A stretch of 64,000 nt of DNA from Candidatus Latescibacterota bacterium (GTDB lineage Bacteria > Latescibacterota > UBA2968 > UBA8231), in contig CBDETK010000013.1 in assembly GCA_965242865.1 (NCBI GenBank), forward strand, positions 4,736,001 to 4,800,000, written 5' to 3'. The stretch's first letter is position 1, and the number at the start of each line of letters is the position of its first letter. Below, one piece after another: positions 19,144-64,000 of the stretch. The position numbers and the translations under genes are program-made. The notes beneath the pieces are model-generated. The model worked only from the letters and a program-made list of their open reading frames with translations, was not told the DNA's origin and did no database searches.

Positions 19144-19145
19144 AT

Positions 19146-32452: not shown

Positions 32453-32586
32453 GAAGCGTTCTTAACACTCATGTTGTTTTTGGCCCGTCTTGCCTGACGC
32501 CTCTAGGGGTCATTCCCGCGCAAGCGGGAATCCAGAAAAGGACCAAGCCGAATCAGACACTGAAACCCTAATTTTAAGAACGCTTC
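32453..32586. mobile_element. MITE family A, copy 2 (134 bp)
   Basis: Same TIRs as 11426-11586; TGA duplicated on both sides. Confidence 0.85.
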
Positions 32587-32600
32587 TGAAGGAGGTGTCC

Positions 32601-34145
32601 ATGCCCAAGCTCAGACTGCCGATCGGCATTCAGACCTTCGGCAAAATTTGGCAGGAGGACTGCTACTACGTCGATAAGACCGCGTACATCCGGCGGCTGC
32701 TCGACGAGGGGACGCACTACTTTCTGTCGCGCCCCCGGCGCTTTGGCAAGAGCCTGTTCCTCGACACGCTCAAGGAGTTGTTCGAGGGCAACGAGCCGCT
32801 GTTTGAGGGGCTGTACATCCGCGATCGCTGGGATTGGTCGGTGCGCCATCCGGTCGTGCGTCTCAGCTTTGGCAGCGGCAATTTCAAGGAGCCCGGCTAC
32901 GTGGCGACGAACCTGATGGCGCAACTGGACGCGGTCGAGCGCCGGGCCGGTATGGCGTCGGACTACGCCACCGGGCCGGAGCGATTTGCCCACCTGCTGG
33001 AGACGCTGCATGGCCGAGCCGGGCAGGCGGTGGTCGTGCTGATCGACGAATACGACAAGCCGATTTTGGACGCGCTGGAGGTGCCGGAAATAGCCCGCGC
33101 CAACCGCGACTTTTTGCGCGGCCTGTACGCGGTCATCAAAGACTGCGACGCGCACGTCCGCTTCGCGTTCATCACCGGGGTGAGCAAGTTTTCCAAGGTC
33201 AGCCTGTTTTCCGGCCTCAACAACCTCACCGACATTACCCTCGAACCCGAGTACTCGGCCATCTGCGGGTACACCGACGCCGACTTGGACGCGGTGTTCG
33301 CGCCCGAACTTCCCGGCCTAGACCGCGATCAGATCCGCGACTGGTACAATGGCTACGCTTGGCTCGGGGCCGAGCGGGTGTACAATCCCTTCGACATCCT
33401 GCTGCTCTTTCGTCGCCGCCGATTCGACGCCTACTGGTTTGAGACCGGCACCCCCACGTTCTTGGTCGAAACCCTGTTCAAACGCCGCGTCAGTTCCCTC
33501 GCGCTCGGTCAGATGAAGGGCAGCAGCGAGTTGCTATCGACTTTTGACGTAGAAGACATGGCGACCGAGGCCCTGCTGTTTCAGACCGGCTACCTCACGA
33601 TAACGGCCGCAGAAAACCTCGGCGGCGAGCGGCTCTACCAATTGGGCTATCCCAACCGGGAGGTGCGCCAGAGCCTAAACCGCAGCCTGCTGCGCTACTT
33701 GGTCAAGGACCCATCGCGGCAGCTGGCCAACAGCGTCCAGCTCTACCGCCTGCTGGAGGCCAACGACTTCGCCGGGCTGGAGACGCTGTTCCACGCCTTT
33801 TTCGCCAGCATTCCCTACGAGTGGTATAACAACAACGACATCACCCAGTACGAGGGCTACTACGCCAGCGTGTTCTACTCCTATTTCGCCGGGCTGGGGC
33901 TGGACATTGCCGTGGAGGACAGCAGCCACGGCCGGTTGGATATGGCGGTTTTGTTTAACGGCTGCGTCTATCTGTTCGAGTTCAAGGTCGTCGAGTTGGC
34001 GTCTGCGGGCGCGGCCATGGCGCAGTTGCAGGAGCGGCGGTACGCAGACAAATATCGCGCTCGGGGCGAGCCGATGTACCTGATCGCCGTGGAGTTCAGC
34101 AAGGACGCCCGCAACCTCGCGGCGTTTACCGTGGAGCGCACCTGA
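32601..34145 (+). CDS. AAA-ATPase-like protein with C-terminal PD-(D/E)XK nuclease
   Basis: LPIGIQTF, YYVDKT, RPRRFGKS, IDEYDKP, GRLD...FEFK; AAGGAGG RBS before ATG 32601. Confidence 0.9.
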   Translation: MPKLRLPIGIQTFGKIWQEDCYYVDKTAYIRRLLDEGTHYFLSRPRRFGKSLFLDTLKELFEGNEPLFEGLYIRDRWDWSVRHPVVRLSFGSGNFKEPGYVATNLMAQLDAVERRAGMASDYATGPERFAHLLETLHGRAGQAVVVLIDEYDKPILDALEVPEIARANRDFLRGLYAVIKDCDAHVRFAFITGVSKFSKVSLFSGLNNLTDITLEPEYSAICGYTDADLDAVFAPELPGLDRDQIRDWYNGYAWLGAERVYNPFDILLLFRRRRFDAYWFETGTPTFLVETLFKRRVSSLALGQMKGSSELLSTFDVEDMATEALLFQTGYLTITAAENLGGERLYQLGYPNREVRQSLNRSLLRYLVKDPSRQLANSVQLYRLLEANDFAGLETLFHAFFASIPYEWYNNNDITQYEGYYASVFYSYFAGLGLDIAVEDSSHGRLDMAVLFNGCVYLFEFKVVELASAGAAMAQLQERRYADKYRARGEPMYLIAVEFSKDARNLAAFTVERT

Positions 34146-34146
34146 C

Positions 34147-34305
34147 ATGCTAGACGAACTCCGCAAAATCCGCTATGCCCGCTTCCGCTTGGAGATGACG
34201 GCGATTGACAGGTTGCGGTTGCCGCCCTACAAGGGATCGACCTTTCGGGGAGCCTTTGGCCATACCTTCAAGCGGCTGGTTTGCGTCAAGCGGGATTTGT
34301 TTTGA
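34147..34305 (+). pseudogene. cas6: Truncated cas6 5' fragment (52 aa)
   Basis: MLDELRKIRYARF...GSTFRGAFG...CVKRDLF*; near-identical to the 38126 copy. Confidence 0.85.
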
Positions 34306-34386
34306 TCCAAGGGACTTGAAACCTCTTGGTGTGCTTCACGTCGAGGTGAATCTCTTGGCACAGTTTGACCCGTAGGAGATTGAAAC
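34295..34386 (+). CRISPR. Degenerate two-repeat mini-array
   Basis: ATTTGTTTTGATCCAAGGGACTTGAAAC, 40 nt, GTTTGACCCGTAGGAGATTGAAAC; both end in the TTGAAAC handle. Confidence 0.5.
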
Positions 34387-34441
34387 GTAGATTAGCTGCG
34401 GCATGGGACGATATGGGCTGACCTGAGAGGAGAGCCGGCGT

Positions 34442-34801
34442 ATGGCTGAACAAAGTGCTTTGATTTTAGGTGCTCTATTGCATGATATTGGAAAGTTCTG
34501 GCAGCGGTCCGGTATTCGCAGAAGGCACGAGAATTTGGGGGCGGAATTTTTGGATTTGCCCGTTATTCGGGATAAGATCGAGGCATTGGTTGATCTTAGG
34601 GACGTTCAAAACATCATCTCTGATCACCATGAACCGGGCATGTATGATATACTCGTCCGCATTGCTCAGATTTCCGATAGACTTGCTTCTGGTGAACGTC
34701 GTGCATCGGGGAGAGGCGAAACCCAAACGCCGTGGGAGACACCATTGAAATCCGTTTTCGCACAGGTTTACAACCAAGAAGGGAGACTTTCAAAAATTTG
34801 A
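34442..34801 (+). CDS. Stand-alone Cas10/Csm1-type HD domain (119 aa), ends inside a CRISPR repeat; possibly a pseudogene
   Basis: GALLHDIGKF, RRHE, DHHE, SDRLASGER motifs; GAGGAG RBS; the TGA stop lies in the repeat's ATTTGA. Confidence 0.75.
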   Translation: MAEQSALILGALLHDIGKFWQRSGIRRRHENLGAEFLDLPVIRDKIEALVDLRDVQNIISDHHEPGMYDILVRIAQISDRLASGERRASGRGETQTPWETPLKSVFAQVYNQEGRLSKI

Positions 34802-34878
34802 AGTGTTGACCCTATTTCTACGAGGATTGAAACTCAACAACTTTCTTTTGCGTATCCACAGACAGCCGCTATAAAAAG

Positions 34879-34919
34879 AAGGGGCGGATACAGAAAATCG
34901 TTTTCTGTATCCGCCCCTT
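34879..34919. repeat. Perfect 19-bp-arm hairpin
   Basis: AAGGGGCGGATACAGAAAA-TCG-TTTTCTGTATCCGCCCCTT. Confidence 0.9.
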
Positions 34920-34951
34920 TCATTCCCCAAAACCCTATAAGGAGGGTTATT

Positions 34952-35884
34952 ATGCGACATTATTTAAGTACTAGTGGTAATCCAGAGGCCGTTCAAAGGG
35001 CCTATGAATGGATAGAGCAAGAACTGCGGCCAGTGGGCGGCGTTGTCATAACTAGCGGTGGGTATTCCTGTCATGGTTCGGTAGCCCGTAAGTGTTTGGA
35101 GAGAAGTGGACTACTCGACCATACTGCCGAAAGCATCCTTATAACAGAGGATGCCAATTATTCCCGGGAATGGCCTCATTACCCCAGCGGCATAGGATGT
35201 CTTTATGTTTCTCATCCGTATATGCAACGTCTGGAGCAGGAGCATGAGGGAGGTCTTGATAAAATTATTCAAGACATAAGCCATCGCTTAGAGGATGAGA
35301 ATATCAGCCTACTGCAAATAGATAGTAAGTATAGCTGGTATTATCCCGGCCGCTCTACCACAATCATCTATGGCGATACCGATCTTTTTACTACGCTATT
35401 TGCTAACGATGTCTTGGGTAATGACGAACAGGCTCGTTTTTTTGGGTTTGAGGCTGGGCCAAACAGCAGTTATGCCCTGAGAAAGCAGTTCGTCGAGGAT
35501 TTAAGCAAAGCCCAGGGATACTTTCCTCATCTTCCAACAGAAGGAGAGCTAAATCGGGAGTTATGCCAAGAGGAAAAGGATATGGAGCAAGAAAAGGTGG
35601 ATGCCGTAGAACGTCTTGCCTATATGATTTCTCGTAGCTATGGCTATAACGCATGGAAAGATGCAGCAAGAAGGGGCGATACGAAATGGGCTACTGCATT
35701 TATTGTAGATAGCATTACTTGCGCTAACGCCTATGAGGGTTTTGACCCCAGCGAGCTGAATGACCGTGCTGACGCTATCCATCATCATCTACTCAAGCGA
35801 GTAGAGAGCGGGGGATGGGATTTTCCTGATAGGGATGAGGGGATATTCGACCCAAAGTTTCTTCGGTCCTCTTTTGGCAGATAG
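34952..35884 (+). CDS. Hypothetical protein (cassette 1)
   Basis: 310 aa; AAGGAGG RBS; AT-richer than the host; no family recognised. Confidence 0.75.
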   Translation: MRHYLSTSGNPEAVQRAYEWIEQELRPVGGVVITSGGYSCHGSVARKCLERSGLLDHTAESILITEDANYSREWPHYPSGIGCLYVSHPYMQRLEQEHEGGLDKIIQDISHRLEDENISLLQIDSKYSWYYPGRSTTIIYGDTDLFTTLFANDVLGNDEQARFFGFEAGPNSSYALRKQFVEDLSKAQGYFPHLPTEGELNRELCQEEKDMEQEKVDAVERLAYMISRSYGYNAWKDAARRGDTKWATAFIVDSITCANAYEGFDPSELNDRADAIHHHLLKRVESGGWDFPDRDEGIFDPKFLRSSFGR

Positions 35885-35899
35885 TAACACCTAACATGG

Positions 35900-35942
35900 G
35901 AAGAGGCGGATACAGAATTTCATTTTCTGAAACCGCCTCTTC
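35900..35942. terminator. Hairpin related to 34879-34919, followed by a T-rich tract
   Basis: GAAGAGGCGGATACAGAA...TTCTGAAACCGCCTCTTC-TTTT. Confidence 0.7.
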
Positions 35943-36386
35943 TTTTATATCAACTAATAAAAGAGTTAGAAATTTAGCCAAGCACGGATTTGCTTGGCCA
36001 TTGTTACCCAAAACAAACTATTTGGGGAGGCCCCTTCAGTATCGACGCCCATGCCTAAAAGGCGGTCAAATATTCGTAATGCTAACTCAAGTTTTTTCGC
36101 TTCTGAGACAGAAAGAGGGTATTTTACTGATAGCATCACTATCATTATCCCTTAACTCCCATATAACCTCATCAGGCATATCCTACATAAAAATTGCTTC
36201 GCATGAACCGGCAAAAGCTGCATAGATTTGCCTAAGCTGGACATTTGAAGTGTTGACCCGATTTCTAGGGGATTGAAACCCGTGGGCCTCGCCAGCAAGT
36301 GCGACGCCATCGTCGAAATCTCGCTCGTCCGGCTCCCGCAAGAGGGTTTCTAACCAACTCTTTAACACTGAGAAAGGACAAGGATC

Positions 36387-37448
36387 ATGACCTGTAACAA
36401 GGACGACAAAGTACTATACAAGTACTACAGCCTTGCTGAGAAAGACATCGGATATACGCTCGCTGCACTGGAAGGATGATACGTCTGGCTTGCAAACCCC
36501 GCCGAGTTCTCCGATTGCTTTGATAATCCATTATCGTTCTCAAAGCACTTCAATATAGATCCTTTCCCGATGACTTGTAACACATTGCGACCCGAATACA
36601 TGCGCGAGACCTATAAATACCTAAAAGACGAAAGAGAAAAATACGAAAACACCGTCAAGGGCGATAGAGTGTTCTACTGGGGAGACGAAAAATTACATCA
36701 TCCCCTTGTCAATAAGTTCATGAACATCATGAACATTTGGGAAAAAATTAAACCAAATTACCGCATGGGATGTACAATAGACGGATTACGATCTTTCCTT
36801 TTTAATGATCTCGGGATCTGTTGCTTTACGTCAGATAATGGAAACCCCTTTATGTGGGATAAATACGCATCAGGATACAGCGGACTGTGTGCAGAATTCG
36901 CTTTTGATGATGAATACAAATTCCCTGAAAAAATCGAATATAGCAAAGAAAAAGCGATCAAAACAACAGACGACGAAACCAATGAATTAAGGCCATCCCT
37001 TATTAAAATCCTAAAAAATCCAACCAAGTTCGACAATCAGTTCTTCGTCAAAACTAAAGAATACCTCGGAGAACAAGAACACCGTCACTTGGAATACTTC
37101 GTCCCATCTCATTACAATCAACTCTTCCCGACCTCGGACGATGAAAAAGAGAAAAGGAAAAGAGAACAATACAAGCCCCGACTAAAATCGATCTGCTTTG
37201 GGTACAGGACAACAAGAGCAATGAGAAAAATATGTTGTCGGCTGGTCGCCCAGGACGTAGAGATACTTCAATTTGAATCCGATCCTTACTTTGTTGACAG
37301 ATTGAAACGCCCAACGATTACAACCACAAGCAATAAAGACCCCCTTACCGCTGGTGACGTTGTACGATACATAGACAAAGGAGCAATATCCTTTAATGCA
37401 GACAGTAAAAAATTACAAAGTATCCTGAAACTACTCAACGATTTTTAG
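36387..37448 (+). pseudogene. DUF2971-like protein (cassette 2) with an in-frame TGA at 36477; downstream ORF 36570..37448 is intact
   Basis: LYKYYS...*YVWLANPAEFSDCFD in frame with ICCFT..N..MW..YA..YSGLC.EF, K..EY..EQEHR, SICFG. Confidence 0.75.
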
Positions 37449-37552
37449 TCCACACCTACCCAAAGCGTTGTTTGAAGTGTTGACACCCGATTTCTAGGGT
37501 ATTGAAACTGCTTTGGATATATCTATTTAACCCTTTATCTGAGGAGGAAACG

Positions 37553-37915
37553 ATGCTACAATCAGTAGTATTAGCTGTTCCGTTTGGCGGGCTGCTAATG
37601 CTTGCGTTTTTCTGGTACGTTTGTATTGCTCATGGAAAAACAGAGCTTAGCGGATACGTATATACGTTTCACTTAGCTTGGACGTGTTCTCTGCTGTGGT
37701 GGGCTATATCTTCTAATCGTTGGCTGGCTGTAGGCTTAGCTTGGATCGCATATCTTGTTGCGAGAGACCAGACCCTTAGCAATGTTCATTTTATAGATGA
37801 GCGAGGCTTAGTTAGTCTGCAATTCGTAGCCAGAGACGCCTTATTCTATGTCAACGCTTTAGGGCCTTTGCCTATAGAGCTTCCTTATTCCCTTTACTTT
37901 TGTATTTTCTGCTAG
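37553..37915 (+). CDS. Small multi-pass membrane protein (cassette 3, 120 aa)
   Basis: GAGGAGG RBS before ATG 37553; 3-4 hydrophobic segments. Confidence 0.65.
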   Translation: MLQSVVLAVPFGGLLMLAFFWYVCIAHGKTELSGYVYTFHLAWTCSLLWWAISSNRWLAVGLAWIAYLVARDQTLSNVHFIDERGLVSLQFVARDALFYVNALGPLPIELPYSLYFCIFC

Positions 37916-38125
37916 CCAAACCAGCCACTAATTGGTCTTCGGCCAAGAATAGCTTAACGGGAAGGGGGTTTTTCTATTCTTCTTGCGTGTGAAGTGTTGA
38001 CCCGATTTCTAGGGGGTTGGAACATCCGTCGTCGTGGCTCGCTGTCTCGTATATACCCTCAATCGCCGTGGAGTTCAGCAAGGACGCCCGCAACCTCGCG
38101 GCGTTTACCGTGGAGCGCACCTGAC

Positions 38126-39056
38126 ATGCTAGACGAACTTCGCAAAATCCGCTATGCCCGCTTCCGCTTGGACCTGACGGCGATTGACAGGTTGCGGTTG
38201 CCGCCCTACAAGGGATCGACCTTTCGGGGAGCCTTTGGCCATACCTTCAAGCGGCTGGTTTGCGTCAAGCGGGATCTGGACTGTGCGACCTGCCTGATCT
38301 GCGACCGGTGCGTGTATTACTACGTCTTTGAGACCCCGTTCAGTGGCGAGGGGGACGCCCGCGGCTATGCCTTCGCGCCGCATCCCTTTGTGGTGGAACC
38401 GCCGGAGGAGACGCGGGAAATCTACGAGCCGGGGGACGAGCTAAGGGTCGGGCTGGTGTTGGTGGGGCGGGCGCTGGACTACCTGCCTTATTTCATCTAC
38501 GCCTTTGAGGAAATGGGGCGTCGGGGGATGGGCGTCGGGCGCGGCCAAGCCGCCTTGCAGCGAGTTATGGCCGGCGGTCAGTGCATCTATCAGCCGGACA
38601 CTGGGCAACTGGAGCCAGACTATCCGGTCTGTGCTGGGCCGCCCGACGGCGAGGCGGTTGGAACGCGGCTGCGGCTGCGGCTACACACACCTATTCGCCT
38701 CAAAGCCGCGGGGCGTTACACCTCCCGACTCGACTTTGCTCTGCTGGTGCGGGCCTTGTTGCGGCGCACTTCGGATCTGGCCCGCCCACTGCGGGGCCGA
38801 GTTGGACTTGGACTATCGGTCGTGGATTGAGCGCGCGGCGGAGGTATCGGCCGTGGCGACGACCCTGCGCTGGCACGACTGGGAGCGGTATTCCCAGCGT
38901 CAGGAACAGAAAATGAAATTGGGCGGCTTAGTGGGCGAAGTGGAGTTTGCCGGCGAGTGGGCTCCGTTCTTGCCGCTGTTGCGGCTGGGGGCCGATCTAC
39001 ACGTGGGCAAGGGGACGGGTTTTGGGCTGGGACGCTACGAGATTTTGCGATCGTAG
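38126..39056 (+). pseudogene. cas6: cas6 with a frameshift near 38786
   Basis: N-half GSTFRGAFG, Cys cluster, PHPFV in one frame; C-half WHDWERYS and LHVGKGTGFGLG G-loop in another. Confidence 0.88.
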
Positions 39057-39082
39057 AAATTGGGAAAGGAGACCTAGCGGGT

Positions 39083-40279
39083 ATGAGGTCATTGAATCAA
39101 GACAGACTGGATGTAGTAGAGAAGACTCGTTCCAACGCCTTCAATTGGCGGGGTCAATTCACGCCCCAATTAGTAGATTACCTGCTCGAGGAGTTCGCTC
39201 CAGAGGCATCGGTGGTCGTCGACCCATTTTGTGGCTCTGGCACCGTGCTGCTCGAATCGGCATCGAGAGATCTGGCTGCTTATGGCGTCGAGTTGAATCC
39301 GGCCGCGTACACGATGGCGAAGTTTTCTACCCTATCGGCACTACCACTCAAACAGCGACGAGCGTTTTGCCGTGAGGTCGAAGCTCATATTGATCACACC
39401 GCAATGGAATTTGGCGATTTGCCTCTTTGGGGTTCCTCTCCGCACTTTCGCGAAAAGGCGCGTAGTCTTCTCGATTTTAGTCGTGCTCTACTCGACCGAT
39501 GTGAGACTAAGCGCCAGACTTTGCTGGCTACGCTCGTCCTTTTTGAAGCAGAGTCGGTACGCAGTGGGAATTTGATCGCTGCTGTTAGATTCAGCTTCCG
39601 AAAGCTGAGCGAGCAGTTGTTGGGCTTACCGTATTTCACTTTTGTGCCCCAAGTCTTTCTATGTGACGCAAGGATAGCAGACAAAATCGTAAGGGAGGAA
39701 TGCGATTTTTTGATTACAAGCCCTCCTTACATCAATGTTTTCAACTACCACCAGAATCATCGAGCTATCGTAGAACTACTGGGCTTCGATGTCTTGAGTG
39801 TAGCGAAAAGTGAAATCGGCTCAAATCGAAAAAATCGCGGAAATCGATTCAAAACGGTTGTTCAGTATGCCTTGGAAATGGAAAGCTGTCTCTATGCTTT
39901 CAACCAACTCTTAAAAGACGAGAGCTACGCCGCCCTCGTAGTAGGCCGTGAGTCGAATGTTCGCGGCATTCCATTCAAAAACGGCGAAATGGTCGCTAGG
40001 ATCGCCCAAGAAGGGGAGCTCTTTCATCTTGATTCATCGCATGAGCGTTCTTTCGTGAATCGCTTTGGAGCGAAGATCGTTGAAGATGTTCTCATCTTGA
40101 AGAAGCGTACCATTTCTACTGCCATCCCTAGCAACGTGGGTAGAACAGTTGCGGAAGATGCCCTTAGAGCTGGATTGCACGTTGCCGAAGCCGATGTGGC
40201 CTCCGATATTGGGGCGGCCCTAGCAGAAATCGACAAAATTGCAGAATCGCCTCTACTTGAGCGAACACCTATTCTATGA
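39083..40279 (+). CDS. Amino (probably N4-cytosine) DNA methyltransferase
   Basis: DPFCGSGT motif I precedes TSPPY motif IV; AAGGAG RBS. Confidence 0.88.
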   Translation: MRSLNQDRLDVVEKTRSNAFNWRGQFTPQLVDYLLEEFAPEASVVVDPFCGSGTVLLESASRDLAAYGVELNPAAYTMAKFSTLSALPLKQRRAFCREVEAHIDHTAMEFGDLPLWGSSPHFREKARSLLDFSRALLDRCETKRQTLLATLVLFEAESVRSGNLIAAVRFSFRKLSEQLLGLPYFTFVPQVFLCDARIADKIVREECDFLITSPPYINVFNYHQNHRAIVELLGFDVLSVAKSEIGSNRKNRGNRFKTVVQYALEMESCLYAFNQLLKDESYAALVVGRESNVRGIPFKNGEMVARIAQEGELFHLDSSHERSFVNRFGAKIVEDVLILKKRTISTAIPSNVGRTVAEDALRAGLHVAEADVASDIGAALAEIDKIAESPLLERTPIL

Positions 40280-40282
40280 CTT

Positions 40283-41182
40283 ATGGATAAAACGCCCCAC
40301 AAAGAGAAGCTCACTGCGGCACTCCACAATCCAAAATGCAGTACCGAGGATCGATCTCTGCTCACAGAGATACTTCGATATTACGAGCAATGGATTTCGG
40401 CCATGCGGGAACTCACCGCGCAAGGCTCGGATCGCGTCAGACAGATGACAGGACTCTTAAACGAATACAAAGACAGGCTTGAGGTTGATTTTATTGCAAA
40501 AGAAGGCTCGCCATTTATCAAGCGTCAAAAGGGCCAACTAAAGATAGACAACTCCGTCTTAGAGGAGTTTTTAATCCACCTAGTGCATCCAGCGATTATT
40601 TCAGGGTTGCCGGATGACGATCTCGCACTTACCATAGGACCAACACGTGTATTTATGTCGCTGTCGTTTAATCCGCGAAATCTCGCTGCACTAGCAGAGA
40701 AACCAAACGTCGCCATTAAGACAAAAGACCAAGACTTCATCATTGGGAAAGAGATCTATTACAAGTTTTCACCAGATTTGAACTTCCCGGCGACAACAAC
40801 TGCCGCTGGAACTATTCCGCTAGCTATTCTCGCGGCAGAGTGTAAGATGAACTTGGACAAGACCATGTTTCAGGAAGCATCTGGAACAGCCGCTCGCCTC
40901 AAGCAAGGATGTCCATACGCGCAATACTATGTCCTGAACGAATATCTCGATATGTCACCAGAAGACTGTCGCCTTACTGCGGTCGATAATGTGTATTTGC
41001 TGCGTCATGCCAAGAGACTTCCCACTGATAAGCGGAATGACTACGATGAGATTCGCCGGCAACGTGAAAAACACCCGATAGATCCCAATGTAATACTTAA
41101 ATTTGTGGAAAATCTCGAAGCTTTTGTGAACGCTGTTTGGTATGATCCTGAAGCGGTGCTGGAGCGTGGCTCATTCGTCTAG
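40283..41182 (+). CDS. Type II restriction endonuclease, Bpu10I-like
   Basis: RQKGQLKIDNSVLEEF, KDQDF, AECK.NLDKTMFQEA; adjacent to the methyltransferase. Confidence 0.75.
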   Translation: MDKTPHKEKLTAALHNPKCSTEDRSLLTEILRYYEQWISAMRELTAQGSDRVRQMTGLLNEYKDRLEVDFIAKEGSPFIKRQKGQLKIDNSVLEEFLIHLVHPAIISGLPDDDLALTIGPTRVFMSLSFNPRNLAALAEKPNVAIKTKDQDFIIGKEIYYKFSPDLNFPATTTAAGTIPLAILAAECKMNLDKTMFQEASGTAARLKQGCPYAQYYVLNEYLDMSPEDCRLTAVDNVYLLRHAKRLPTDKRNDYDEIRRQREKHPIDPNVILKFVENLEAFVNAVWYDPEAVLERGSFV

Positions 41183-41193
41183 GGAGAAAATTT

Positions 41194-43527
41194 ATGGTAT
41201 CGAGAGACGCCTTGGTCGTCGGGGCTTTGCTGCACGACATAGGCAAATTTGAGTTCAGGACCGCGGACCGGCGGACGCGCCACTCCACTTACGGGGACTT
41301 TTTCGTCGGTGAGTACTTGAGCCGCTTCCGCTGTATGGAGCCAATTTTGGAGGAGGTCCGTCGGTTGGTGGCCCACCACCACGATTGGGAGGGGGATCCC
41401 TTTTTGCGGGAGGCCGATCATCTGGCCACGGCTGATCGGCAGGTAGATGGCAGCCCCGAGACCTTGCGGTCGCTGGTGAGCGTCCTGACCGCCGTGGACA
41501 TTGGGAAAGGTGCCCCACCGCAAGATGTGCATCGCTATGCTCCGGGGCCGGTGGATTTTGCCAATCCCTTTCCCGAACCCATCCCGGGCGTCGCGCCCGC
41601 CGAGTGGCAGCCCGACCGGGAGCAGGCGCGGGACGAGCATGACCGCGCTTGGCAGCAGTTTTGCGCCGAGGTTGAGGCCATGCCCGATGGCGACTTGACG
41701 AGTTGGATCGAGACGTTCTTGGCGGTGGCTCGCAAGCATCTGAGCCGCGTGGCTTCGGCGGCCTACAAATCGCATCCCGATATTTCGCTCTACGATCACG
41801 CCCGCTCGGTGGCCGCGATTGCGGTGTGCCTGCGCGAGGCCCCTCAGCAAGCCGAGCCTTTCTTATTGATCCAAGGGGATATCTCGGGCGTTCAGTCCTT
41901 TCTCTATAAACTGGCCAGCCCGGACGAGGCGAAAAACACGGCCAAACGCCTGCGCGGACGCTCCCTGTTCTTGGTGCTGTTGGCCGAGACCGCAGCGCGT
42001 TACTACATGTGCGCCTTGAATTTGCCGCCGACCAACCTGCTGTACTGTGGCGGTGGGCACTTTTCAATTTTAGCACCCCACACCGACGAAGTGACAGCCA
42101 AGCTGACCGAGGCCGAGAAGCGGGTCAACCGCTGGTTGATTAAGCAGCATCGCGGCGATCTGGCACTGGTGAGCGCGTCCACCCCGGCCGGTCGGGCGCT
42201 GATGGCCGATTTCGCCGGTTTGATGCAGCAGTCTGGCTACGCGCTCAATCGGGCCAAGCGGCAGAAATTTTGCGCTGTATTGGACGAGTCGCTGTTTGCG
42301 TTGCCAGACTACGAGGAGACAATGGACGTCTGCCCGGTGTGCCAAGCCGATTTCGTCAAAGGCACTGGAGATACTTGCCCGGCTTGTGAACGCCACGTGG
42401 AGACCGGACGCCGGATCGTCCAAGCCCAGTACTTGGTGCGGCTCGAAGGGGGCGATTTGGACCCAGCGAGCGATGAATTCGCCGCACTGGGCGCGGCCTA
42501 TAGATTAGCGGCAAACTGGACCGAGGTGGTCCAACACGTCGAGAATACTCGGGCGGAGCGCATGCACGTGGAACGGCTCAACGACAGTGGTTTTCTGACC
42601 GAGGAAGGCACGGCCCTCGGCAACCGATGCCCCGGGCTCAGCTTCGGGTTCCGGCCCCTCGGCCAGTACGCCCCGCGCGACGAGCAAGAGGGAGGGCCGC
42701 TGGACTTTGAGCACTTGGCCAAGCGGAACGCCGCCAATTACCCGCTGTTGGGGGTCGTGCGCCTCGATGTGGATGCGCTGGGCGCGGTATTCGCGTTGGG
42801 GTTGGGCGAGAAGCGGTCGCTGTCGCGCACGGCCACCCTAAGCCGCGAATTGGAGACCTTTTTCTCCGGCTACGTCAACACGTTGGCCGAAAAGCACGCT
42901 ATGTACATCACCTACGCCGGGGGCGACGACCTGTTCGCCGTAGGCTCTTGGATCAACGCCCTCGAATTTAGCCGCGCCCTGCGGCGGGCCTTTGGCTGCT
43001 TTAGCGGCGGCAATCCCAATCTGACCTTTTCGGGGGGCCTGCTCTTTTGCAAGCCGGATTTCCCCATCGGGCGGGCGGCCGAAGCGGCCGGCGAACTGGA
43101 GAAGCGGGCCAAGGATTTCTCAGGCAAAAACGCCCTCTGTCTATTTGACGAAGAGGTCTCATGGGACCGGCTCGACGAGTTGCTCGCCTTTGGCGACGAC
43201 CTGCTATACTTGGTGACCGAGGCGAAACCGGATGACCGCTTGCCCCGTTCATTTGTTCATCGTCTGTTGAACTTGGAAACTGAGCGACGGGCCGCGCACA
43301 AGGCGGGAAAATTGCACGCCGAGATAAAGACGCAGATGCAGCTCAAGTACATGGTAGCCCGACGCGGGGCCACCAGCGAGGCGATCCATGCCCCTGAAGA
43401 AATGGCGGCGGACCGCCGCAAAATAGGGGCCTTGGGACAGCTTGTTTGCGAGCCGAAACTGATGCGCCAGATCGCCGTGCCGGCGTCTTACGTGCTGTAC
43501 AAGACGCGCAACCTCAACAAGGAATAG
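41194..43527 (+). CDS. cas10: Type III-A Cas10/Csm1 (HD + palm domains)
   Basis: ALLHDIGK, DISLYDH, GDISGVQSF, LRGRS, CPVC..C..C, YAGGDDL. Confidence 0.95.
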   Translation: MVSRDALVVGALLHDIGKFEFRTADRRTRHSTYGDFFVGEYLSRFRCMEPILEEVRRLVAHHHDWEGDPFLREADHLATADRQVDGSPETLRSLVSVLTAVDIGKGAPPQDVHRYAPGPVDFANPFPEPIPGVAPAEWQPDREQARDEHDRAWQQFCAEVEAMPDGDLTSWIETFLAVARKHLSRVASAAYKSHPDISLYDHARSVAAIAVCLREAPQQAEPFLLIQGDISGVQSFLYKLASPDEAKNTAKRLRGRSLFLVLLAETAARYYMCALNLPPTNLLYCGGGHFSILAPHTDEVTAKLTEAEKRVNRWLIKQHRGDLALVSASTPAGRALMADFAGLMQQSGYALNRAKRQKFCAVLDESLFALPDYEETMDVCPVCQADFVKGTGDTCPACERHVETGRRIVQAQYLVRLEGGDLDPASDEFAALGAAYRLAANWTEVVQHVENTRAERMHVERLNDSGFLTEEGTALGNRCPGLSFGFRPLGQYAPRDEQEGGPLDFEHLAKRNAANYPLLGVVRLDVDALGAVFALGLGEKRSLSRTATLSRELETFFSGYVNTLAEKHAMYITYAGGDDLFAVGSWINALEFSRALRRAFGCFSGGNPNLTFSGGLLFCKPDFPIGRAAEAAGELEKRAKDFSGKNALCLFDEEVSWDRLDELLAFGDDLLYLVTEAKPDDRLPRSFVHRLLNLETERRAAHKAGKLHAEIKTQMQLKYMVARRGATSEAIHAPEEMAADRRKIGALGQLVCEPKLMRQIAVPASYVLYKTRNLNKE

Positions 43528-60506: not shown

Positions 60507-63500
60507 ATTTGAAGTGTTGACCCGATTTCTAGGGGATTGAAACTCAATGAAAAAGTAATGCACCAAAGAGCAACGGTATTCAGATTTGAAGTGTTGACCC
60601 GATTTCTAGGGGATTGAAACTGCTCGCCATCGACCAAGACGGCGGACAACCCGAAGCGATTATTTGAAGTGTTGACCCGATTTCTAGGGGATTGAAACTC
60701 ATGGGGGCGTTGATGGGGGATGGGATTTAATGGATACGCATTTGAAGTGTTGACCCGATTTCTAGGGGATTGAAACGAAGAGAGGCATGACGCACCCAAA
60801 GAGGCAGAGCTAGCCCATTTGAAGTGTTGACCCGATTTCTAGGGGATTGAAACGGGTGTGATTGGATTTTGCTTGCCGCGCCGCGCCTTGACAATTTGAA
60901 GTGTTGACCCGATTTCTAGGGGATTGAAACTATCCGCATCGCGGATTGGCACATTCAAATTCGCAACATTTGAAGTGTTGACCCGATTTCTAGGGGATTG
61001 AAACCGGTGGGCGACTTCGACCGCGCGGCTGAGGAGATGCTCGAATTTGAAGTGTTGACCCGATTTCTAGGGGATTGAAACAAATATGCACTTGACGCTC
61101 TAAATCAAATGCCGCGCACAAATTTGAAGTGTTGACCCGATTTCTAGGGGATTGAAACGAAAAGGCAAAAACCGCTTGACCAACGTGAGAGGGTTGTTAT
61201 TTGAAGTGTTGACCCGATTTCTAGGGGATTGAAACCCCTTTTTTTTAACGTATTGCGGGGCAATCGTTTATGCCATATTTGAAGTGTTGACCCGATTTCT
61301 AGGGGATTGAAACAACACGCCGCCGCGCCCCAAACTCCGAAGTCCTTAGGATTTGAAGTGTTGACCCGATTTCTAGGGGATTGAAACCCGGCACCACCAT
61401 CAGCGTAGTGGTGCTCATTGGCCTTAATTTGAAGTGTTGACCCGATTTCTAGGGGATTGAAACGGCTGCGCCCGCATTTTTGCGATCAATTCTTTGTGCG
61501 TCATCATTTGAAGTGTTGACCCGATTTCTAGGGGATTGAAACTAAGGGAGGGGTTATCCAGCAGTAAGGAACCAGCGTCGAATTTGAAGTGTTGACCCGA
61601 TTTCTAGGGGATTGAAACGGTTCATCTCCCCCTTGCGCGCCATCCTCACGGGTTTGCTATTTGAAGTGTTGACCCGATTTCTAGGGGATTGAAACCTTAA
61701 CGTAGTGGCTCGCCGTCTGGTCCAAGTGGACATAATTTGAAGTGTTGACCCGATTTCTAGGGGATTGAAACGGTCCACGCCAGCAGACTGGGCTTCCACG
61801 CTGGCGGCGCAATTTGAAGTGTTGACCCGATTTCTAGGGGATTGAAACTGTTCATCCTCCGCACCGTCCGCGACGCGCGGAGCGCGACATTTGAAGTGTT
61901 GACCCGATTTCTAGGGGATTGAAACGGCCCTATTTTTGTGCTGTTGACTTACACTCTTTAGTGTAATTTGAAGTGTTGACCCGATTTCTAGGGGATTGAA
62001 ACCGGCGGATCAGTGGCGGCCACCGTTGGTTACATCGTGGTATTTGAAGTGTTGACCCGATTTCTAGGGGATTGAAACATAGACGCCGGCCCGACACGCG
62101 CACACGGAGAATTGAGATTTGAAGTGTTGACCCGATTTCTAGGGGATTGAAACATGATGAGAGCAAAGCCGCCCCCGAGCGCGAGTACCATTTGAAGTGT
62201 TGACCCGATTTCTAGGGGATTGAAACCACAAACAAGCCCTTCGGGCTTGTCTCCAGCCCTGTTGTTATTTGAAGTGTTGACCCGATTTCTAGGGGATTGA
62301 AACATACTTTCAAAGTTTCCTGCCTTGAAATTCTGAGCGTGGTATTTGAAGTGTTGACCCGATTTCTAGGGGATTGAAACTCGAATACCTTGAATGCGAT
62401 GACGGCCATGACGAGAGATTTGAAGTGTTGACCCGATTTCTAGGGGATTGAAACTTTCTCAGATTCATGGAGTGACGCTTCGAATGTGCTATTTGAAGTG
62501 TTGACCCGATTTCTAGGGGATTGAAACAAGGAGCGGTTCCCGTGGAGCAAAGCCCTTTCTCAGAACCATTTGAAGTGTTGACCCGATTTCTAGGGGATTG
62601 AAACCGAGGAGCTGCTGGGGGCGAAATTGATTTAAATACGCATTTGAAGTGTTGACCCGATTTCTAGGGGATTGAAACGACGTATATGATGGCCGAGTTG
62701 GCGCACCGTGTGGTCGAGCGTGGCGGCATTTGAAGTGTTGACCCGATTTCTAGGGGATTGAAACCCCGATCAGCGCATGGCTATCCGCATCCTGCATCCA
62801 AATTTGAAGTGTTGACCCGATTTCTAGGGGATTGAAACATAGATCCGCCGGCCGCGGCGATAATGGGTGATCGGCTCCATTTGAAGTGTTGACCCGATTT
62901 CTAGGGGATTGAAACATCCCGATGGATGATGGCTATCTGCGATTCGGGGATGCGATTTGAAGTGTTGACCCGATTTCTAGGGGATTGAAACCCACACGTT
63001 CCCGATAGCGATCTCCGCAGCACCGCTGTTGTATTTGAAGTGTTGACCCGATTTCTAGGGGATTGAAACATCTGGTTGCCCATAAGCATAATCAGACTCG
63101 CAGCCGACATTTGAAGTGTTGACCCGATTTCTAGGGGATTGAAACCGTGTGAGTGTGAGTGGGTTATTCAAAGCATCGATATTTGTTATTTGAAGTGTTG
63201 ACCCGATTTCTAGGGGATTGAAACTGGGCTTTAGGCCGGATGAGGCGAGGCCATCGGACGACATTTGAAGTGTTGACCCGATTTCTAGGGGATTGAAACT
63301 CGCCCTTTGGTTTGCCGCCACGCCCGCCAGCGCGGTCAACCCATTTGAAGTGTTGACCCGATTTCTAGGGGATTGAAACGGTCGCAGTGCTGTTCTCGCC
63401 AGCGATCCATCGGTTCACATTTGAAGTGTTGACCCGATTTCTAGGGGATTGAAACCGGACGAACACGACGACCTGATCGAGATAGCCGCCCGCTGTCTGG

Positions 63501-64000
63501 TCAATTTGAAGTGTTGACCCGATTTCTAGGGGATTGAAACCGGGACAGGTCGTCGGCGGCAAACTGTCGCCGCAAGTAGAATTTGAAGTGTTGACCCGAT
63601 TTCTAGGGGATTGAAACACAGATGCTGAGAGCCGTTGCAGCCAACTAATCGACATTCGATTTGAAGTGTTGACCCGATTTCTAGGGGATTGAAACCACCG
63701 CCTGTGCGCCTTGTGGAACGATGCGGGCCCGTGGGATTTGAAGTGTTGACCCGATTTCTAGGGGATTGAAACTCGGTCGATCCCGAAACCTACGGCAAAC
63801 TACAGCCGTACATTTGAAGTGTTGACCCGATTTCTAGGGGATTGAAACTTCGAGCACCCATCTTTGTCCATTCGATCTTCTGCACTTCATTTGAAGTGTT
63901 GACCCGATTTCTAGGGGATTGAAACTGGGCGATCCGATAGACCCCACCAACACAAACTCCTCTGAAAATTTGAAGTGTTGACCCGATTTCTAGGGGATTG
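60507..64000 (+). CRISPR. CRISPR array, 37-nt repeat, at least 46 repeats (last one cut by the window edge)
   Basis: ATTTGAAGTGTTGACCCGATTTCTAGGGGATTGAAAC invariant; spacers ~36-49 nt; 3' ATTGAAAC gives + orientation. Confidence 0.99.

What the first reader, a model, noticed from the sequence alone, without database searches (positions are those of the whole stretch)
34796..38061. CRISPR repeats delimiting whole genes: an array whose spacers are gene cassettes
Seen: four copies of the locus's own 37-nt repeat lie 22-26 kb from the main array and in the same orientation. They are separated by 1409, 1190 and 478 bp rather than ~40 nt. Each interval is AT-richer than the host and holds one ORF on the repeat's strand with its own RBS (310-aa unknown, DUF2971-like, 120-aa membrane protein). 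The last repeat is followed by a spacer-sized 38 nt. Known: Cas1-Cas2 duplicates the repeat on integration, and Cas6 cuts 8 nt before the repeat end. Inference: an integron-like cassette system in which the repeat acts as the capture or recombination site, and/or Cas6 splits the transcript into tagged mRNAs. I know of no described system with this layout.
Basis: partly seen in the sequence, partly recalled or inferred. Interest (0 to 1): 0.9.

Follow-up and report, generated by a model that had tools for sequence, protein, structure and literature searches.

The report
CRISPR repeats bracketing foreign genes
Four real copies of a CRISPR repeat bracket three foreign orphan genes, but the whole 3.8-kb block looks like a one-off, decaying insertion beside the cas6 gene rather than a working gene-cassette system.

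Summary
Four same-strand copies of the locus's 37-nt repeat lie at 34796-38023, with 1409, 1190 and 478 bp between them. Each interval is low in GC and holds one ORF with its own ribosome-binding site. Contigs from two independent studies support the layout. New findings: the repeats belong to one 3762-bp foreign block (34300-38061). It is flanked by a 217-bp direct duplication of the host junction between the AAA-ATPase gene and cas6. Intact relatives have that site empty; G019 has an unrelated insertion there. The block also holds one or two further eroded repeats. It carries a 5' fragment of a foreign cas10 whose homology stops exactly at the first base of repeat 1. The middle ORF is a DUF2971/PDC-S31 defence-candidate gene with a nonsense codon here. 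cas6 is frameshifted. The three ORFs are near-orphans. Nothing shows cassette mobility: there is no recombinase and no variation in content between the two strains seen. Relatives also have gene-sized intervals between repeats at array ends. My reading is a decaying mosaic of a mini-array with cargo. The repeats mark past joining of foreign DNA at array borders. An active integron-like or Cas6-tagging system is not supported, but past gene capture at repeat edges stays open.

The parts
32490..34145 (+). Host AAA-ATPase_like / PDDEXK_9 gene. In relatives it lies directly upstream of cas6.
   Evidence: Pfam PF09820 at 4.7e-62 and PF08011 at 4e-17. The gene is multi-copy in the genus.
34083..34299 (.). 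Copy 1 of the 217-bp direct duplication. It comprises the last 63 nt of the AAA-ATPase gene, TGAC, and the first 51 codons of cas6.
   Evidence: the repeat finder family D9, 98% identity; alignment A3.
34147..34305 (+). Truncated cas6' (52 codons). It stops where the foreign block begins.
   Evidence: ORF list; tblastn with the Cas6 of G007.
34296..34323 (+). R0a, a possible eroded repeat (ATTTG...CTTGAAAC).
   Evidence: Gapped alignment score 22, not above the shuffled maxima of 24-27. It is suggestive only because it lies about a spacer's length before R0b.
34362..34386 (+). R0b, a degenerate repeat with a 5-6-nt internal deletion (AGT-TTGACCCG/TAGGAGATTGAAAC).
   Evidence: Score 34 against shuffled maxima of 24-27.
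34442..34801 (+). cas10', a 119-codon HD-domain 5' fragment of a foreign cas10 with its own RBS. Its stop codon lies inside R1.
   Evidence: Pfam HD at 4.3e-10. It is 79-80% identical at the DNA level to the cas10 5' end of G048 and G050, which belong to another family. The homology ends at the first base of R1. GC3 is 0.44.
34796..34833 (+). R1, CRISPR repeat copy (38 nt, 92%).
34879..34919 (.). 19-bp-stem hairpin upstream of ORF1. Its stem resembles the hairpin after ORF1.
   Evidence: Terminator scan; sequence.
34952..35884 (+). ORF1, 310 aa, near-orphan of unknown function.
   Evidence: No hit in Pfam, NCBIfam, PADLOC or PHROGs. Only 3 homologs at E<=0.001 in the 5.8-billion-protein search. 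Not found in 131 other genomes of the class.
35900..35942 (+). Terminator-like hairpin followed by TTTTAT, directly after ORF1.
   Evidence: Read from the sequence. The consensus scan did not call it.
36243..36279 (+). R2, a perfect repeat copy (37 of 37).
36387..37448 (+). ORF2, a divergent DUF2971 / PDC-S31 family gene. It is broken by TGA at codon 31 (36477-36479).
37470..37508 (+). R3, a repeat copy with a 2-nt AC insertion that is absent in strain X3.
37553..37915 (+). ORF3, 120 aa. The hydrophobic sequence suggests a membrane protein; this was read by eye and no transmembrane predictor was run. Orphan.
37987..38023 (+). R4, a degenerate repeat copy (33 of 37).
38024..38061 (+). Spacer-sized 38 nt ending at the block/host junction.
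   Evidence: No match elsewhere.
38062..38278 (.). Copy 2 of the 217-bp duplication, continuous with the full-length cas6.
38126..39056 (+). cas6 of the locus, frameshifted near 38785 in this genome.
   Evidence: tblastn gives frames 1 and 2 joined at codon 227. Relatives have intact proteins of 313-315 aa. X3 and X5 contigs carry +TT after 38785, while X1 agrees with the window.
38957..41182 (+). Context: a low-GC restriction-modification pair (N6_N4 MTase and a Bpu10I-type REase) inserted between cas6 and cas10.
   Evidence: It is shared in degraded form with G019 and G030.
60508..64000 (+). Main array with the same repeat, downstream of cas1-cas2. It runs on past the window end.

Best explanation
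This is a relic mosaic, not a working cassette system. An eroded mini-array of the host's own repeat type has long intervals filled with DNA from a low-GC donor. That DNA comprises a cas10 5' fragment and three small cargo genes, one of them a defence-candidate DUF2971/PDC-S31 gene. The whole 3.76-kb unit entered this lineage once. It landed at an insertion-prone site between the AAA-ATPase gene and cas6, through a recombination event that duplicated 217 bp of host sequence.

The genes lie between repeats because arrays and stray repeats of this genus are tolerated, recombination-prone landing sites, and foreign DNA was joined there at or near repeat borders. Since then the block has drifted as passenger DNA: the repeats have eroded, ORF2 has a nonsense codon, and amino-acid changes have accumulated between strains.

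Shown: the repeats, the duplication, the empty or differently filled site in relatives, the foreign composition, the exact cas10'|R1 junction, the decay, and the same layout in a second study.

Inferred: entry in a single event, the way the block was built, and the lack of any present function for the repeats.
For: One unit, one lineage.
- A 217-bp, 98% duplication flanks the block exactly.
- In 3 of 3 relatives with an intact locus read at sequence level (G007, G001, G027), the AAA-ATPase stop is followed by the cas6 start within 8-46 nt.
- No DNA match to the block interior was listed in 60 relatives, apart from array repeats and the cas10 5' end of another genus. That output was cut, with 620 weaker matches not listed.

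Hot spot. G019 has an unrelated insertion of about 944 bp at the same site. It is flanked by a duplication of about 48 bp of the AAA-ATPase 3' end and holds no CRISPR repeats.

Chimeric make-up. The repeats are of the host type. The exact 21-mer was found in only one other record among the GTDB species representatives, and in none of IMG/VR. The interior has GC3 of 0.41-0.45 against 0.74-0.83 for host genes. cas10' is about 80% identical to the cas10 of a 48%-GC genus whose own repeat differs.

Recurrence of gene-sized intervals between repeats. This was seen in 2 of the 8 relatives whose loci I fetched, and those 8 were chosen because they had cas6 or array matches.
- G007: a reverse-transcriptase/maturase gene plus a 495-aa ORF (4014 bp), and a 105-aa ORF (427 bp).
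- G019: a HAD hydrolase gene (1082 bp).
- G048, in another genus, has a significant solitary repeat in front of an EcsC gene inside its cas locus.

Decay.
- ORF2 has a nonsense codon.
- ORF1, ORF2 and ORF3 differ from their closest relatives (P0001, P0004 and P0005, the only close ones found) by 7, 14 and 1 residues.
- R1, R3 and R4 have eroded, while all 57 array repeats are perfect.
- cas6 is frameshifted.

No mobility signal. X1 and X3 carry the same parts in the same order.
Against: - Three of the five long intervals hold exactly one complete gene with an RBS, all on the repeat strand. By my rough estimate, random fragments of 1409, 1190 and 478 bp would rarely contain whole genes of 933, 1062 and 363 bp. 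The joint chance is of the order of 1 in 100 or less. This is an inference, not a computation. It points to selection, or to a process that handles gene units.
- The cas10'|R1 junction is exact to within about 1 nt, and the block ends exactly one spacer length (38 nt) after R4. Chance breakpoints would rarely do both. This hints at a repeat-edge-specific cut such as Cas1-Cas2 makes.
- R2 is still perfect.
- The origin of the 217-bp duplication is unexplained.
- I could not see the contigs that carry the only distant homologs of ORF1 (P0002 at 69% and P0003 at 42%). Independent repeat-flanked copies therefore cannot be excluded.
Confidence: 0.45

Rival explanations
1. The block is a piece of a mobile element's counter-defence or cargo island. 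The element carried mimics of the host repeat (solitary repeat units, Racr-like, plus a mini-array) between its genes. It also carried a stand-alone Cas10 HD fragment and a captured copy of the host AAA-ATPase/cas6 junction. It integrated by single-crossover homologous recombination through that 217-bp copy, which produced the duplication. The repeats would then soak up or misdirect Cas proteins.
For: - Foreign composition throughout the block.
- Host-type repeats sit in intergenic positions, co-oriented with the genes.
- Complete genes between repeats are expected if the repeats evolved within an element's operon.
- A direct duplication flanking the insert is what a Campbell-type crossover leaves. 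The three differences between the copies sit together in the 5' part of copy 2.
- Solitary repeat units next to acr genes on viruses and plasmids are documented (PMC10651486, passages read). Phage mini-arrays are documented too (10.1101/2023.03.03.530964, passages read).
- cas10' keeps its own RBS and start codon.
Against: - The block has no integrase, replication, capsid or transfer gene.
- The repeat is not found in IMG/VR. ORF1 is not found in IMG/VR or in plasmids. No low-GC contig is present in the assembly.
- There is no excess of promoter-like sites (6 found, 6.5 expected).
- ORF2 belongs to a candidate defence family, not an anti-defence one.
- A 4-kb circle has no means of its own to replicate or transfer.
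- The spacer-sized pieces have no target in the window above shuffled controls.
Confidence: 0.2
2. The long intervals are 'giant spacers'. The adaptation machinery (Cas1-Cas2), or breaks it makes at spacer/repeat borders followed by repair, joined kilobase pieces of one low-GC invader into an array, duplicating the repeat each time. The array segment later moved upstream of cas6.
For: - Host-type repeats alternate with fragments of similar foreign composition: GC3 of 0.44, 0.43, 0.45 and 0.41.
- Ordinary spacer-sized units lie at both ends: about 32-38 nt between R0a and R0b, and 38 nt after R4.
- The cas10 fragment is fused exactly to the 5' edge of R1. That is where Cas1-Cas2 joins incoming DNA (established knowledge, recalled).
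- Two intervals are plain gene fragments.
- cas1 and cas2 are intact. The array shows heavy recent uptake, including 17 of 56 spacers that match the host chromosome.
Against: - Cas1-Cas2 measures its substrate, and spacers here are 36-49 nt. I know of no kilobase spacer on record. My four literature searches found none, but they were narrow.
- Three whole genes in three fragments is unlikely for random uptake.
- The block is not at the leader end and shows no similarity to the leader.
- R1, R3 and R4 differ from the consensus, which fresh duplication would not give.
Confidence: 0.15
3. One reading: an active integron-like platform in which the repeat is the capture and recombination site, and/or Cas6 cuts a long transcript into repeat-tagged single-gene mRNAs.
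For: The layout itself: one co-oriented ORF with an RBS per interval. The junction at R1 is exact. One cassette is a defence-type gene, as in chromosomal integrons that store defence genes (recalled, not read).
Against: - No recombinase gene is adjacent.
- The repeats are unstructured.
- Content is identical in the two strains seen, and the block is absent from relatives as a whole.
- No joint skipping a cassette was among the 15 joints listed for 4 runs; 24 more were not shown.
- cas6 is frameshifted, and no second copy was found by tblastn or by PF01881.
- ORF1 carries its own terminator-like hairpin before R2.
- ORF2 is broken.
Confidence: 0.07
4. Assembly artefact: array repeats were wrongly joined to unrelated low-GC contigs.
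For: R2 is identical to the array repeat, and short-read contigs break there.
Against: Independent contigs from two studies run without a break from the host duplication through R0b, cas10', R1 and ORF1 into R2. They also run from R2 through ORF2, R3, ORF3, R4 and the 38 nt into the host duplication. P0004 and P0005, the close relatives of ORF2 and ORF3, each lie on a contig recorded as 7573 bp, probably the same one.
Confidence: 0.02

Closest known systems
[quoted passage not shown] 2023, bioRxiv 10.1101/2023.03.03.530964; passages read)
   Same: Repeat copies lie outside the array but within the cas neighbourhood, and the outer copies are degenerate. For type III loci, that paper judges such elements to be mostly degraded, non-functional repeats. 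It notes that repeats are recombination-prone and that cargo genes sit in cas loci.
   Different: Those elements are one to three repeats with spacer-sized gaps. Here four to six repeats have gaps of 0.4-1.4 kb, each holding a foreign gene or gene fragment, and the set is a strain-specific insertion. I found no target for the spacer-sized pieces. The paper's supplementary tables, which I could not open, may list comparable cases.
Solitary repeat units / RNA anti-CRISPRs (Racr) on phages and plasmids (Camara-Wilpert et al. 2023, PMC10651486; passages read)
   Same: Mimics of the host repeat sit in foreign DNA, next to small genes of unknown function.
   Different: Racrs are usually single, lie behind a promoter, and sit on recognisable mobile elements. 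Here several copies sit in the chromosome, with no mobile-element genes and no promoter signal.
Integron cassette arrays (attI/attC sites and the IntI recombinase; recalled knowledge)
   Same: A row of promoter-poor, co-oriented single genes separated by a recurring short site. The cargo includes a defence-type gene.
   Different: There is no integrase and no hairpin-forming site. No cassette turnover was seen, and the block's ends are not the recurring site.
Cas1-Cas2 spacer integration, including off-target 'neo-CRISPR' integration (Nivala et al. 2018; recalled and not read. only listed papers that cite it.)
   Same: New DNA is joined exactly at repeat borders with duplication of the repeat. 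An exact border is seen at cas10'|R1.
   Different: The inserts are 10-40 times longer than any spacer of this array, and three of them are whole genes.
Cargo and defence genes lodged in CRISPR-cas loci (the defence-island habit; recalled). The restriction-modification pair between cas6 and cas10 in this same locus is an example.
   Same: Low-GC foreign defence-type genes are inserted among cas genes.
   Different: The R-M insertion has no repeats at its borders. The block does.

Membership tests
Canonical CRISPR array | Three or more near-identical direct repeats of 23-55 nt in one orientation | tested here: met
   There are 4 clear copies (37 of 37, 33 of 37, and two at 92% with small insertions) plus 1 significant degenerate copy. 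All are on the + strand.
Canonical CRISPR array | Unique spacers of uniform short length, about the size of the repeat | tested here: not met
   The intervals are 410, 1409, 1190 and 478 nt. Main-array spacers are 36-49 nt. Only the two end units are spacer-sized.
Integron | Adjacent tyrosine-recombinase (IntI) gene | tested here: not met
   Pfam on the ORFs of 32490-43527 found an AAA-ATPase/PDDEXK_9 gene, an HD fragment, cas6, an MTase, an REase and cas10. No integrase was found. The rest of the window was not scanned for one.
Integron | Recombination sites that fold as imperfect hairpins (attC) | tested here: not met
   The repeat and its variants fold no better than shuffles, with z-scores from -0.55 to +0.93.
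Integron | Cassette content that varies between close strains, and free circular cassettes | tested here: inconclusive
   X1 and X3 show the same content and order. Among the joints listed, none skips a cassette. Contigs drop rare variants, and no raw reads were available.
Stand-alone repeat-like element / mini-array of a cas locus | A repeat match of at least 16 bp outside the array, in or beside the cas locus | tested here: met
   The threshold is the one stated in the passage read.
Stand-alone repeat-like element / mini-array of a cas locus | A spacer partly complementary to a cas promoter or a cargo gene (the regulatory kind) | tested here: not met
   The best matches of five repeat-adjacent pieces anywhere in the window (18-24 bits) lie within the shuffled range (mean 21-22, maximum 24-28 bits).
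Racr / solitary repeat unit of a mobile element | A repeat mimic carried on a virus or plasmid | tested here: inconclusive
   The composition is foreign. No mobile-element gene is present. The repeat and ORF1 are absent from IMG/VR, and ORF1 is absent from the plasmid collection.
Racr / solitary repeat unit of a mobile element | The RNA binds Cas6 or Cas7 and inhibits interference | not testable with these tools
   This needs expression in a host with this type III system.
Cas1-Cas2-acquired spacer | The insert abuts the repeats exactly on both sides | tested here: inconclusive
   The one junction with an outgroup (cas10'|R1) is exact to within about 1 nt. The other junctions have no outgroup.
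Cas1-Cas2-acquired spacer | Length within the system's narrow range | tested here: not met
   410-1409 nt against 36-49 nt.
DUF2971 / PADLOC PDC-S31 (ORF2) | A significant match to the family profile | tested here: met
   PADLOC PDC-S31 at 5.6e-21 and phrog_1762 at 4.9e-22, both with P0004. Pfam DUF2971 does not match ORF2 or P0004 directly. Of the 8 more distant homologs scanned, 7 match it at E<=0.01, and 6 of those clear Pfam's 22-bit cut-off. A DUF2971-annotated plasmid gene matches at 4e-4.
Type III CRISPR-Cas locus (context) | cas10 with csm/cmr-type RAMP genes, cas6, cas1-cas2 and an array | tested here: met
   III-A: cas10, csm2, csm3, csm4, csm5. III-D-like: a cas10-like gene, csx10, csx7 (two copies), csx19 and TIGR03986. 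Also present: a gene matching TIGR02619 (putative CRISPR-associated protein), cas1, cas2 and the array. cas6 is frameshifted.

The most novel reading that the evidence does not exclude
In this lineage the borders of CRISPR repeats are sites where whole foreign genes are captured. Capture could work in one of two ways. Cas1-Cas2, or breaks it makes at spacer/repeat junctions, could join kilobase DNA with repeat duplication, giving 'giant spacers'. Or repeat-to-repeat exchange could occur with elements that carry repeat mimics. Either way, arrays would double as gene-capture platforms for defence or counter-defence cargo. The block at 34300-38061 would be a displaced piece of such a platform.
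Probability: 0.15. Interest if true: 0.9.

Novelty: new variant of a known kind. Interest (0 to 1): 0.5.

Why it matters
If the ordinary reading holds, this is a well-documented case of how a CRISPR-cas locus erodes while collecting foreign cargo. It shows stray repeats, a truncated duplicate cas6, a foreign cas10 stump, an R-M pair and a defence-candidate gene, all packed around a frameshifted cas6. It also warns that repeats flanking genes need not mean a system.

If the bolder reading holds, gene capture at repeat edges would be a new route of horizontal gene gain tied to the adaptation machinery. It would be testable with this locus's intact cas1-cas2. The exact cas10'|R1 fusion, and three whole genes in three intervals, are the two facts that keep that door open.

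Tried and rejected
Searches for homologs and their context.
- ORF1: none in the GTDB representatives by pattern scan, none in JGI metagenomes, none in IMG/VR, none in plasmids, and none in 131 other genomes of the class.
- ORF2: none in JGI metagenomes.
- ORF3: only one 99% relative.
- I therefore could not test whether homology elsewhere stops at the repeat edges. The contigs behind P0001-P0005 could not be fetched, because the look-up of encoding contigs is marked closed and I did not call it.

Function.
- AlphaFold2 on ORF1 with 4 sequences gave pLDDT 45.7, so I ran no fold search.
- ESM Atlas gave only weak leads: scores of 0.84 or less, with alpha/beta-hydrolase-like clusters for ORF1 and nothing for ORF3.
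- A 59-aa minus-strand ORF at 35966-36145 had no PADLOC or PHROGs hit.

Ideas rejected.
- A further degenerate repeat after the GC-rich 66 nt downstream of R2 ('R2b'): alignment score 12, rejected.
- TGA recoding for ORF2: the close relative has GGA (Gly) at that codon, so it is a point mutation.
- Regulatory-guide role: no target for the spacer-sized pieces in the window, the genome or IMG/VR.
- No main-array spacer matches the block.
- Degenerate repeats at the borders of the R-M insertion: none at 20 of 37 or better in an ungapped scan.
- A low-GC donor contig in the assembly: none.

Other negatives and limits.
- No RNA holder was listed for the stretch, so nothing can be said on expression.
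- In run X5 the block is covered at depth 5-10 and the flanking variant contigs at about 200-250. This may mean a dominant strain without the block, but no contig joins across the site, so I draw no conclusion.
- Literature: four searches for genes flanked by CRISPR repeats, long spacers, or integron-like CRISPR layouts found no description of this layout. They were narrow phrase searches of open-access text only.

Full report
1. The observation.

They are all on the + strand, like the main array that starts at 60508 behind cas1-cas2. R2 (36243-36279) is a perfect 37-mer. R1 (34796-34833) and R3 (37470-37508) carry small insertions and one to three substitutions. R4 (37987-38023) matches 33 of 37 positions and has a degenerate 3' end. 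In the 6-Mb genome the repeat occurs only in the main array (57 perfect copies) and at these four places. BLAST E-values for the four copies run from 8e-15 to 7e-6.

The gaps are 1409, 1190 and 478 bp, and 38 nt follow R4. The region has GC of 0.38-0.49 against 0.58-0.67 around it. Each gap holds one + strand ORF behind a Shine-Dalgarno-like motif.

Short-read contigs from a run that may be the source sample (X1, 0 differences) and from a different study (X3, about 1% divergence) run unbroken from host sequence through R0b, the cas10 fragment, R1 and ORF1 into R2. They also run from R2 through ORF2, R3, ORF3, R4 and the 38 nt back into host sequence. Only the step across R2, which is identical to the array repeat, rests on the assembly alone. 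A mis-assembly is very unlikely.

(a) The repeats sit in a single foreign block, 34300-38061. It is flanked by a 217-bp direct duplication (34083-34299 equals 38062-38278, 98% identical). The duplicated segment consists of the last 63 nt of the upstream AAA-ATPase/PDDEXK_9 gene plus the first 51 codons of cas6. So a truncated cas6' lies before the block and the full-length cas6 after it.

(b) Between cas6' and R1 lie one significant further repeat and one weaker candidate. R0b (34362-34386) has an internal deletion and scores 34 against shuffled maxima of 24-27. R0a (34296-34323) scores 22, which is not significant alone. It lies about a spacer's length upstream of R0b.

(c) The 410 nt between R0b and R1 are the 5' end of a foreign cas10. 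This is a 119-codon HD-domain ORF with its own RBS. It is 79-80% identical in DNA to the cas10 start of G048 and G050, two genomes of another family with 47-48% GC. In the alignment the homology runs to ...TTTCAAAA and stops at the first base of R1.

(d) ORF2 carries TGA at codon 31. Its only close relative, P0004 (96%), has Gly there. P0004 shows the same 9-nt and 3-nt deletions as the X3 contigs, so the sister strain probably has an intact allele.

(e) cas6 of this genome is frameshifted near 38785. tblastn with a relative's Cas6 gives two frames that join at codon 227. Relatives have intact proteins of 313-315 aa. X3 and X5 contigs carry two extra T at that site, while X1 agrees with the window. 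Neither tblastn with a relative's Cas6 nor the Cas6 Pfam model PF01881 found another cas6 in the genome.

3. The neighbourhood.

The locus is a composite type III system. It runs:
- cas6;
- a low-GC restriction-modification pair (a DNA methylase and a Bpu10I-type endonuclease) lodged between cas6 and cas10;
- III-A genes (cas10, csm2-5);
- a TM1812-family gene;
- a III-D-like module (a cas10-like gene, csx10, csx7 twice, csx19, TIGR03986);
- a gene matching TIGR02619 (putative CRISPR-associated protein);
- cas1 and cas2;
- the array.

One search found the exact repeat 21-mer in only one other record among the GTDB species representatives, titled as an uncultured Latescibacteria bacterium. The runs that hold the stretch are mostly labelled sponge metagenomes.

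4. Relatives.

In the three relatives with an intact locus that I read at sequence level (G007, G001, G027), the AAA-ATPase stop is followed by the cas6 start within 8-46 nt. This is an empty site. A DNA search with the block against 60 relatives listed only array repeats and the cas10 5' end of the other genus; 620 weaker matches were not listed.

G030, one of the two closest relatives I looked at (91-95% in the flanks), has lost nearly everything. It keeps cas6', shreds of the R-M pair, then a solitary repeat and the downstream genes. G005 has a deletion from cas6' into the downstream HAD gene.

G019 shares the R-M pair (93-94%) and the identical repeat. It has its own insertion of about 944 bp at the same spot. 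That insertion is a lower-GC, minus-strand gene for a secreted-looking protein. It is flanked by a duplication of about 48 bp of the AAA-ATPase 3' end and contains no CRISPR repeat. The site upstream of cas6 is thus a hot spot for insertions that duplicate the target. The block entered as a unit through junctions that are not repeats.

5. Do repeats bound genes elsewhere?

I fetched the loci of eight relatives, chosen because they had cas6 or array matches. Two show gene-sized gaps between repeats at the trailer end.

In G007 the last regular repeat is followed by a reverse-transcriptase/maturase/HNH gene and a 495-aa ORF (4014 bp, GC 0.44-0.59). Then come a degenerate repeat, a 105-aa ORF (427 bp), a repeat, a 39-nt spacer and a last degenerate repeat.

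In G019 a HAD hydrolase gene lies between the last perfect repeat and a 27-nt repeat remnant that abuts the start codon of the next gene. By eye, similar sequence sits at that start codon in G005 and G007; this was not scored.

In the other genus, G048 has a significant solitary repeat (score 38 against 24-28) in front of an EcsC-family gene inside its cas locus.

The window genome's second CRISPR locus has a degenerate repeat on the far side of cas1.

Stray repeats and genes between repeats are therefore recurrent here. This agrees with the survey that found stand-alone repeats in 10-14% of type III loci and judged them mostly degraded (passages of 10.1101/2023.03.03.530964).

6. The cargo.

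ORF1 has no family in four libraries. It has three homologs at E<=0.001 in the 5.8-billion-protein search (98%, 69% and 42%). It was not found in the other collections searched. Its structure model was too poor to use.

ORF2 is a divergent DUF2971 protein. P0004 matches PADLOC's candidate defence family PDC-S31 at 5.6e-21 and phrog_1762 at 4.9e-22. Of the 8 more distant homologs I scanned, 7 match Pfam DUF2971 at E<=0.01, 6 of them above Pfam's cut-off.

ORF3 is a 120-aa hydrophobic orphan.

The three ORFs and cas10' share a GC3 of 0.41-0.45. Host genes have 0.74-0.83 and the R-M pair 0.48-0.49. This is compatible with one low-GC donor pool.

The repeats that separate them are of the host type, not the donor genus's type. 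The block is therefore chimeric. It was built where this repeat exists: in an array of this lineage, or on an element that mimics it.

7. Weighing the mechanisms.

I rank the plain reading first, at 0.45. The block is a displaced, eroding piece of mini-array into which foreign DNA was joined at or near repeat borders. It was inserted once at a hot spot and is now passenger DNA. The evidence for it:
- the single flanking duplication;
- the empty or differently filled site in relatives;
- the recurrence of genes between stray repeats in the genus;
- the decay (broken ORF2, eroded R1, R3 and R4 against 57 perfect array repeats, frameshifted cas6);
- 7, 14 and 1 residue differences between the window's ORFs and their closest relatives;
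- identical content in both strains seen.

Two facts resist it. First, three intervals each hold one whole gene on the repeat strand, which random fragments would rarely do (my rough estimate, not computed). Second, two breakpoints fall exactly where a repeat begins or would begin: cas10'|R1, and the block's end 38 nt after R4.

These facts feed three rivals.
- A mobile-element island with repeat mimics, integrated by a crossover in the 217-bp homology (0.2). It explains whole genes and the duplication, and it has a documented precedent in solitary repeat units next to acr genes (PMC10651486). But no mobile-element gene and no viral or plasmid copy was found.
- Capture of long DNA by Cas1-Cas2 or at Cas1-made breaks, giving 'giant spacers' (0.15). 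It explains host repeats between foreign pieces and the exact border. But it conflicts with the 36-49-nt spacers of this array and with what is known of the enzyme's ruler (recalled).
It lacks a recombinase, a structured site, any turnover and, in this genome, a working cas6.

An artefact gets 0.02.

8. Novelty and verdict.

The layout is real and unusual. I found no description of several consecutive repeats each bounding a foreign gene (searches; narrow, open-access text only). Its parts are nevertheless known kinds: stray repeats and mini-arrays in cas loci, cargo genes in defence loci, and repeat mimics on mobile elements. It is a single-lineage event with clear signs of decay.

I file it as a new variant of a known kind, with interest 0.5. 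The most novel reading the evidence leaves open is gene capture at repeat edges, at probability about 0.15. It would be of high interest and can be tested with the steps listed.

Noticed in passing
window 60508-64000 and on to about 64849 (G000:C13:4796507-4800849): 17 of the 56 main-array spacers match the host's own chromosome elsewhere at 95-100% identity, and 11 of them match perfectly. One of the 17 (sp4) hits about 18 copies of a repeated element. Ten of the 17 are among the first 18 spacers next to the leader. By a crude ORF-strand test, 5 would pair with an mRNA and 12 would not. Together with the frameshifted cas6, this suggests recent self-sampling by an adaptation module whose interference is off or tolerant.
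   Followed up: partly
window 38126-39056: cas6 is frameshifted near 38785 in this genome and in run X1. Contigs of X3 and X5 carry two extra T there, and relatives have intact genes of 313-315 codons. Neither tblastn with a relative's Cas6 nor the Pfam model PF01881 found another cas6 in the genome.
   Followed up: yes
window 38957-41182: A low-GC restriction-modification pair (an N6/N4 methylase and a Bpu10I-type endonuclease) is lodged between cas6 and cas10. It is shared with G019, where the methylase is interrupted and most of the endonuclease is lost. In G030 only shreds remain.
   Followed up: partly
L029 (G019), reverse strand, about 3838-4781 in the orientation of the window: An independent insertion of about 944 bp at the same AAA-ATPase/cas6 site. 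It is a lower-GC gene for a secreted-looking protein on the opposite strand, flanked by a duplication of about 48 bp of the AAA-ATPase 3' end. It holds no CRISPR repeats.
   Followed up: partly
L025 (G030) 8636-9345; L007 (G005) 2050-2730: Two relatives have lost the whole CRISPR-cas locus by deletions that start inside cas6'. G030 keeps one solitary repeat 13 nt after the endonuclease stop. G005 fuses cas6' into the downstream HAD gene.
   Followed up: partly
L030+L031 (G007), joined coordinates 17331-21900: At the trailer end of the array, a reverse-transcriptase/maturase/HNH gene without obvious intron RNA domains upstream, a 495-aa ORF and a 105-aa orphan ORF lie between regular and degenerate repeats.
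   Followed up: partly
L026 (G048) 9522-9558: A solitary degenerate repeat of that genus's own type lies between a 611-aa ORF and an EcsC-family gene, just upstream of cas10. The 611-aa ORF had no Pfam hit, and its DNA aligns with the window's TM1812-family gene.
   Followed up: partly
G000:C13:1805070-1819291: In relatives the HAD and SDR genes and their neighbours follow the array. In this genome they lie 3 Mb away, next to a gene whose translation looks like coaBC (my reading, not tested). One breakpoint of a large rearrangement therefore sits at the array's trailer end.
   Followed up: partly
G000:C13:3522934-3527423: A second CRISPR locus has a different 37-nt repeat (41 perfect copies), its own cas1, and a degenerate repeat copy (89%) on the far side of cas1. 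Two more copies lie on the small contig C4.
   Followed up: partly
window 32490-34145 and many places in the relatives: The AAA-ATPase_like/PDDEXK_9 gene upstream of cas6 is multi-copy at 70-87% DNA identity, with 3-5 or more matches per genome in the genus and in a second family. It may itself be mobile, or a recombination substrate.
   Followed up: no
window 11656-11840: Five tandem copies of a GC-rich 37-nt unit (GGGGCGGCCCCCGTGCCTGCCCGTTAGAATCCCGTTG). Related 78-nt sequences occur at 11420 and 32447. Not examined.
   Followed up: no
window 34879-34919 and 35900-35942: The hairpins before and after ORF1 share the stem GGCGGATACAGAA...TTCTG.A.CCGCC, as if from one family of terminators in the donor genome.
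   Followed up: no
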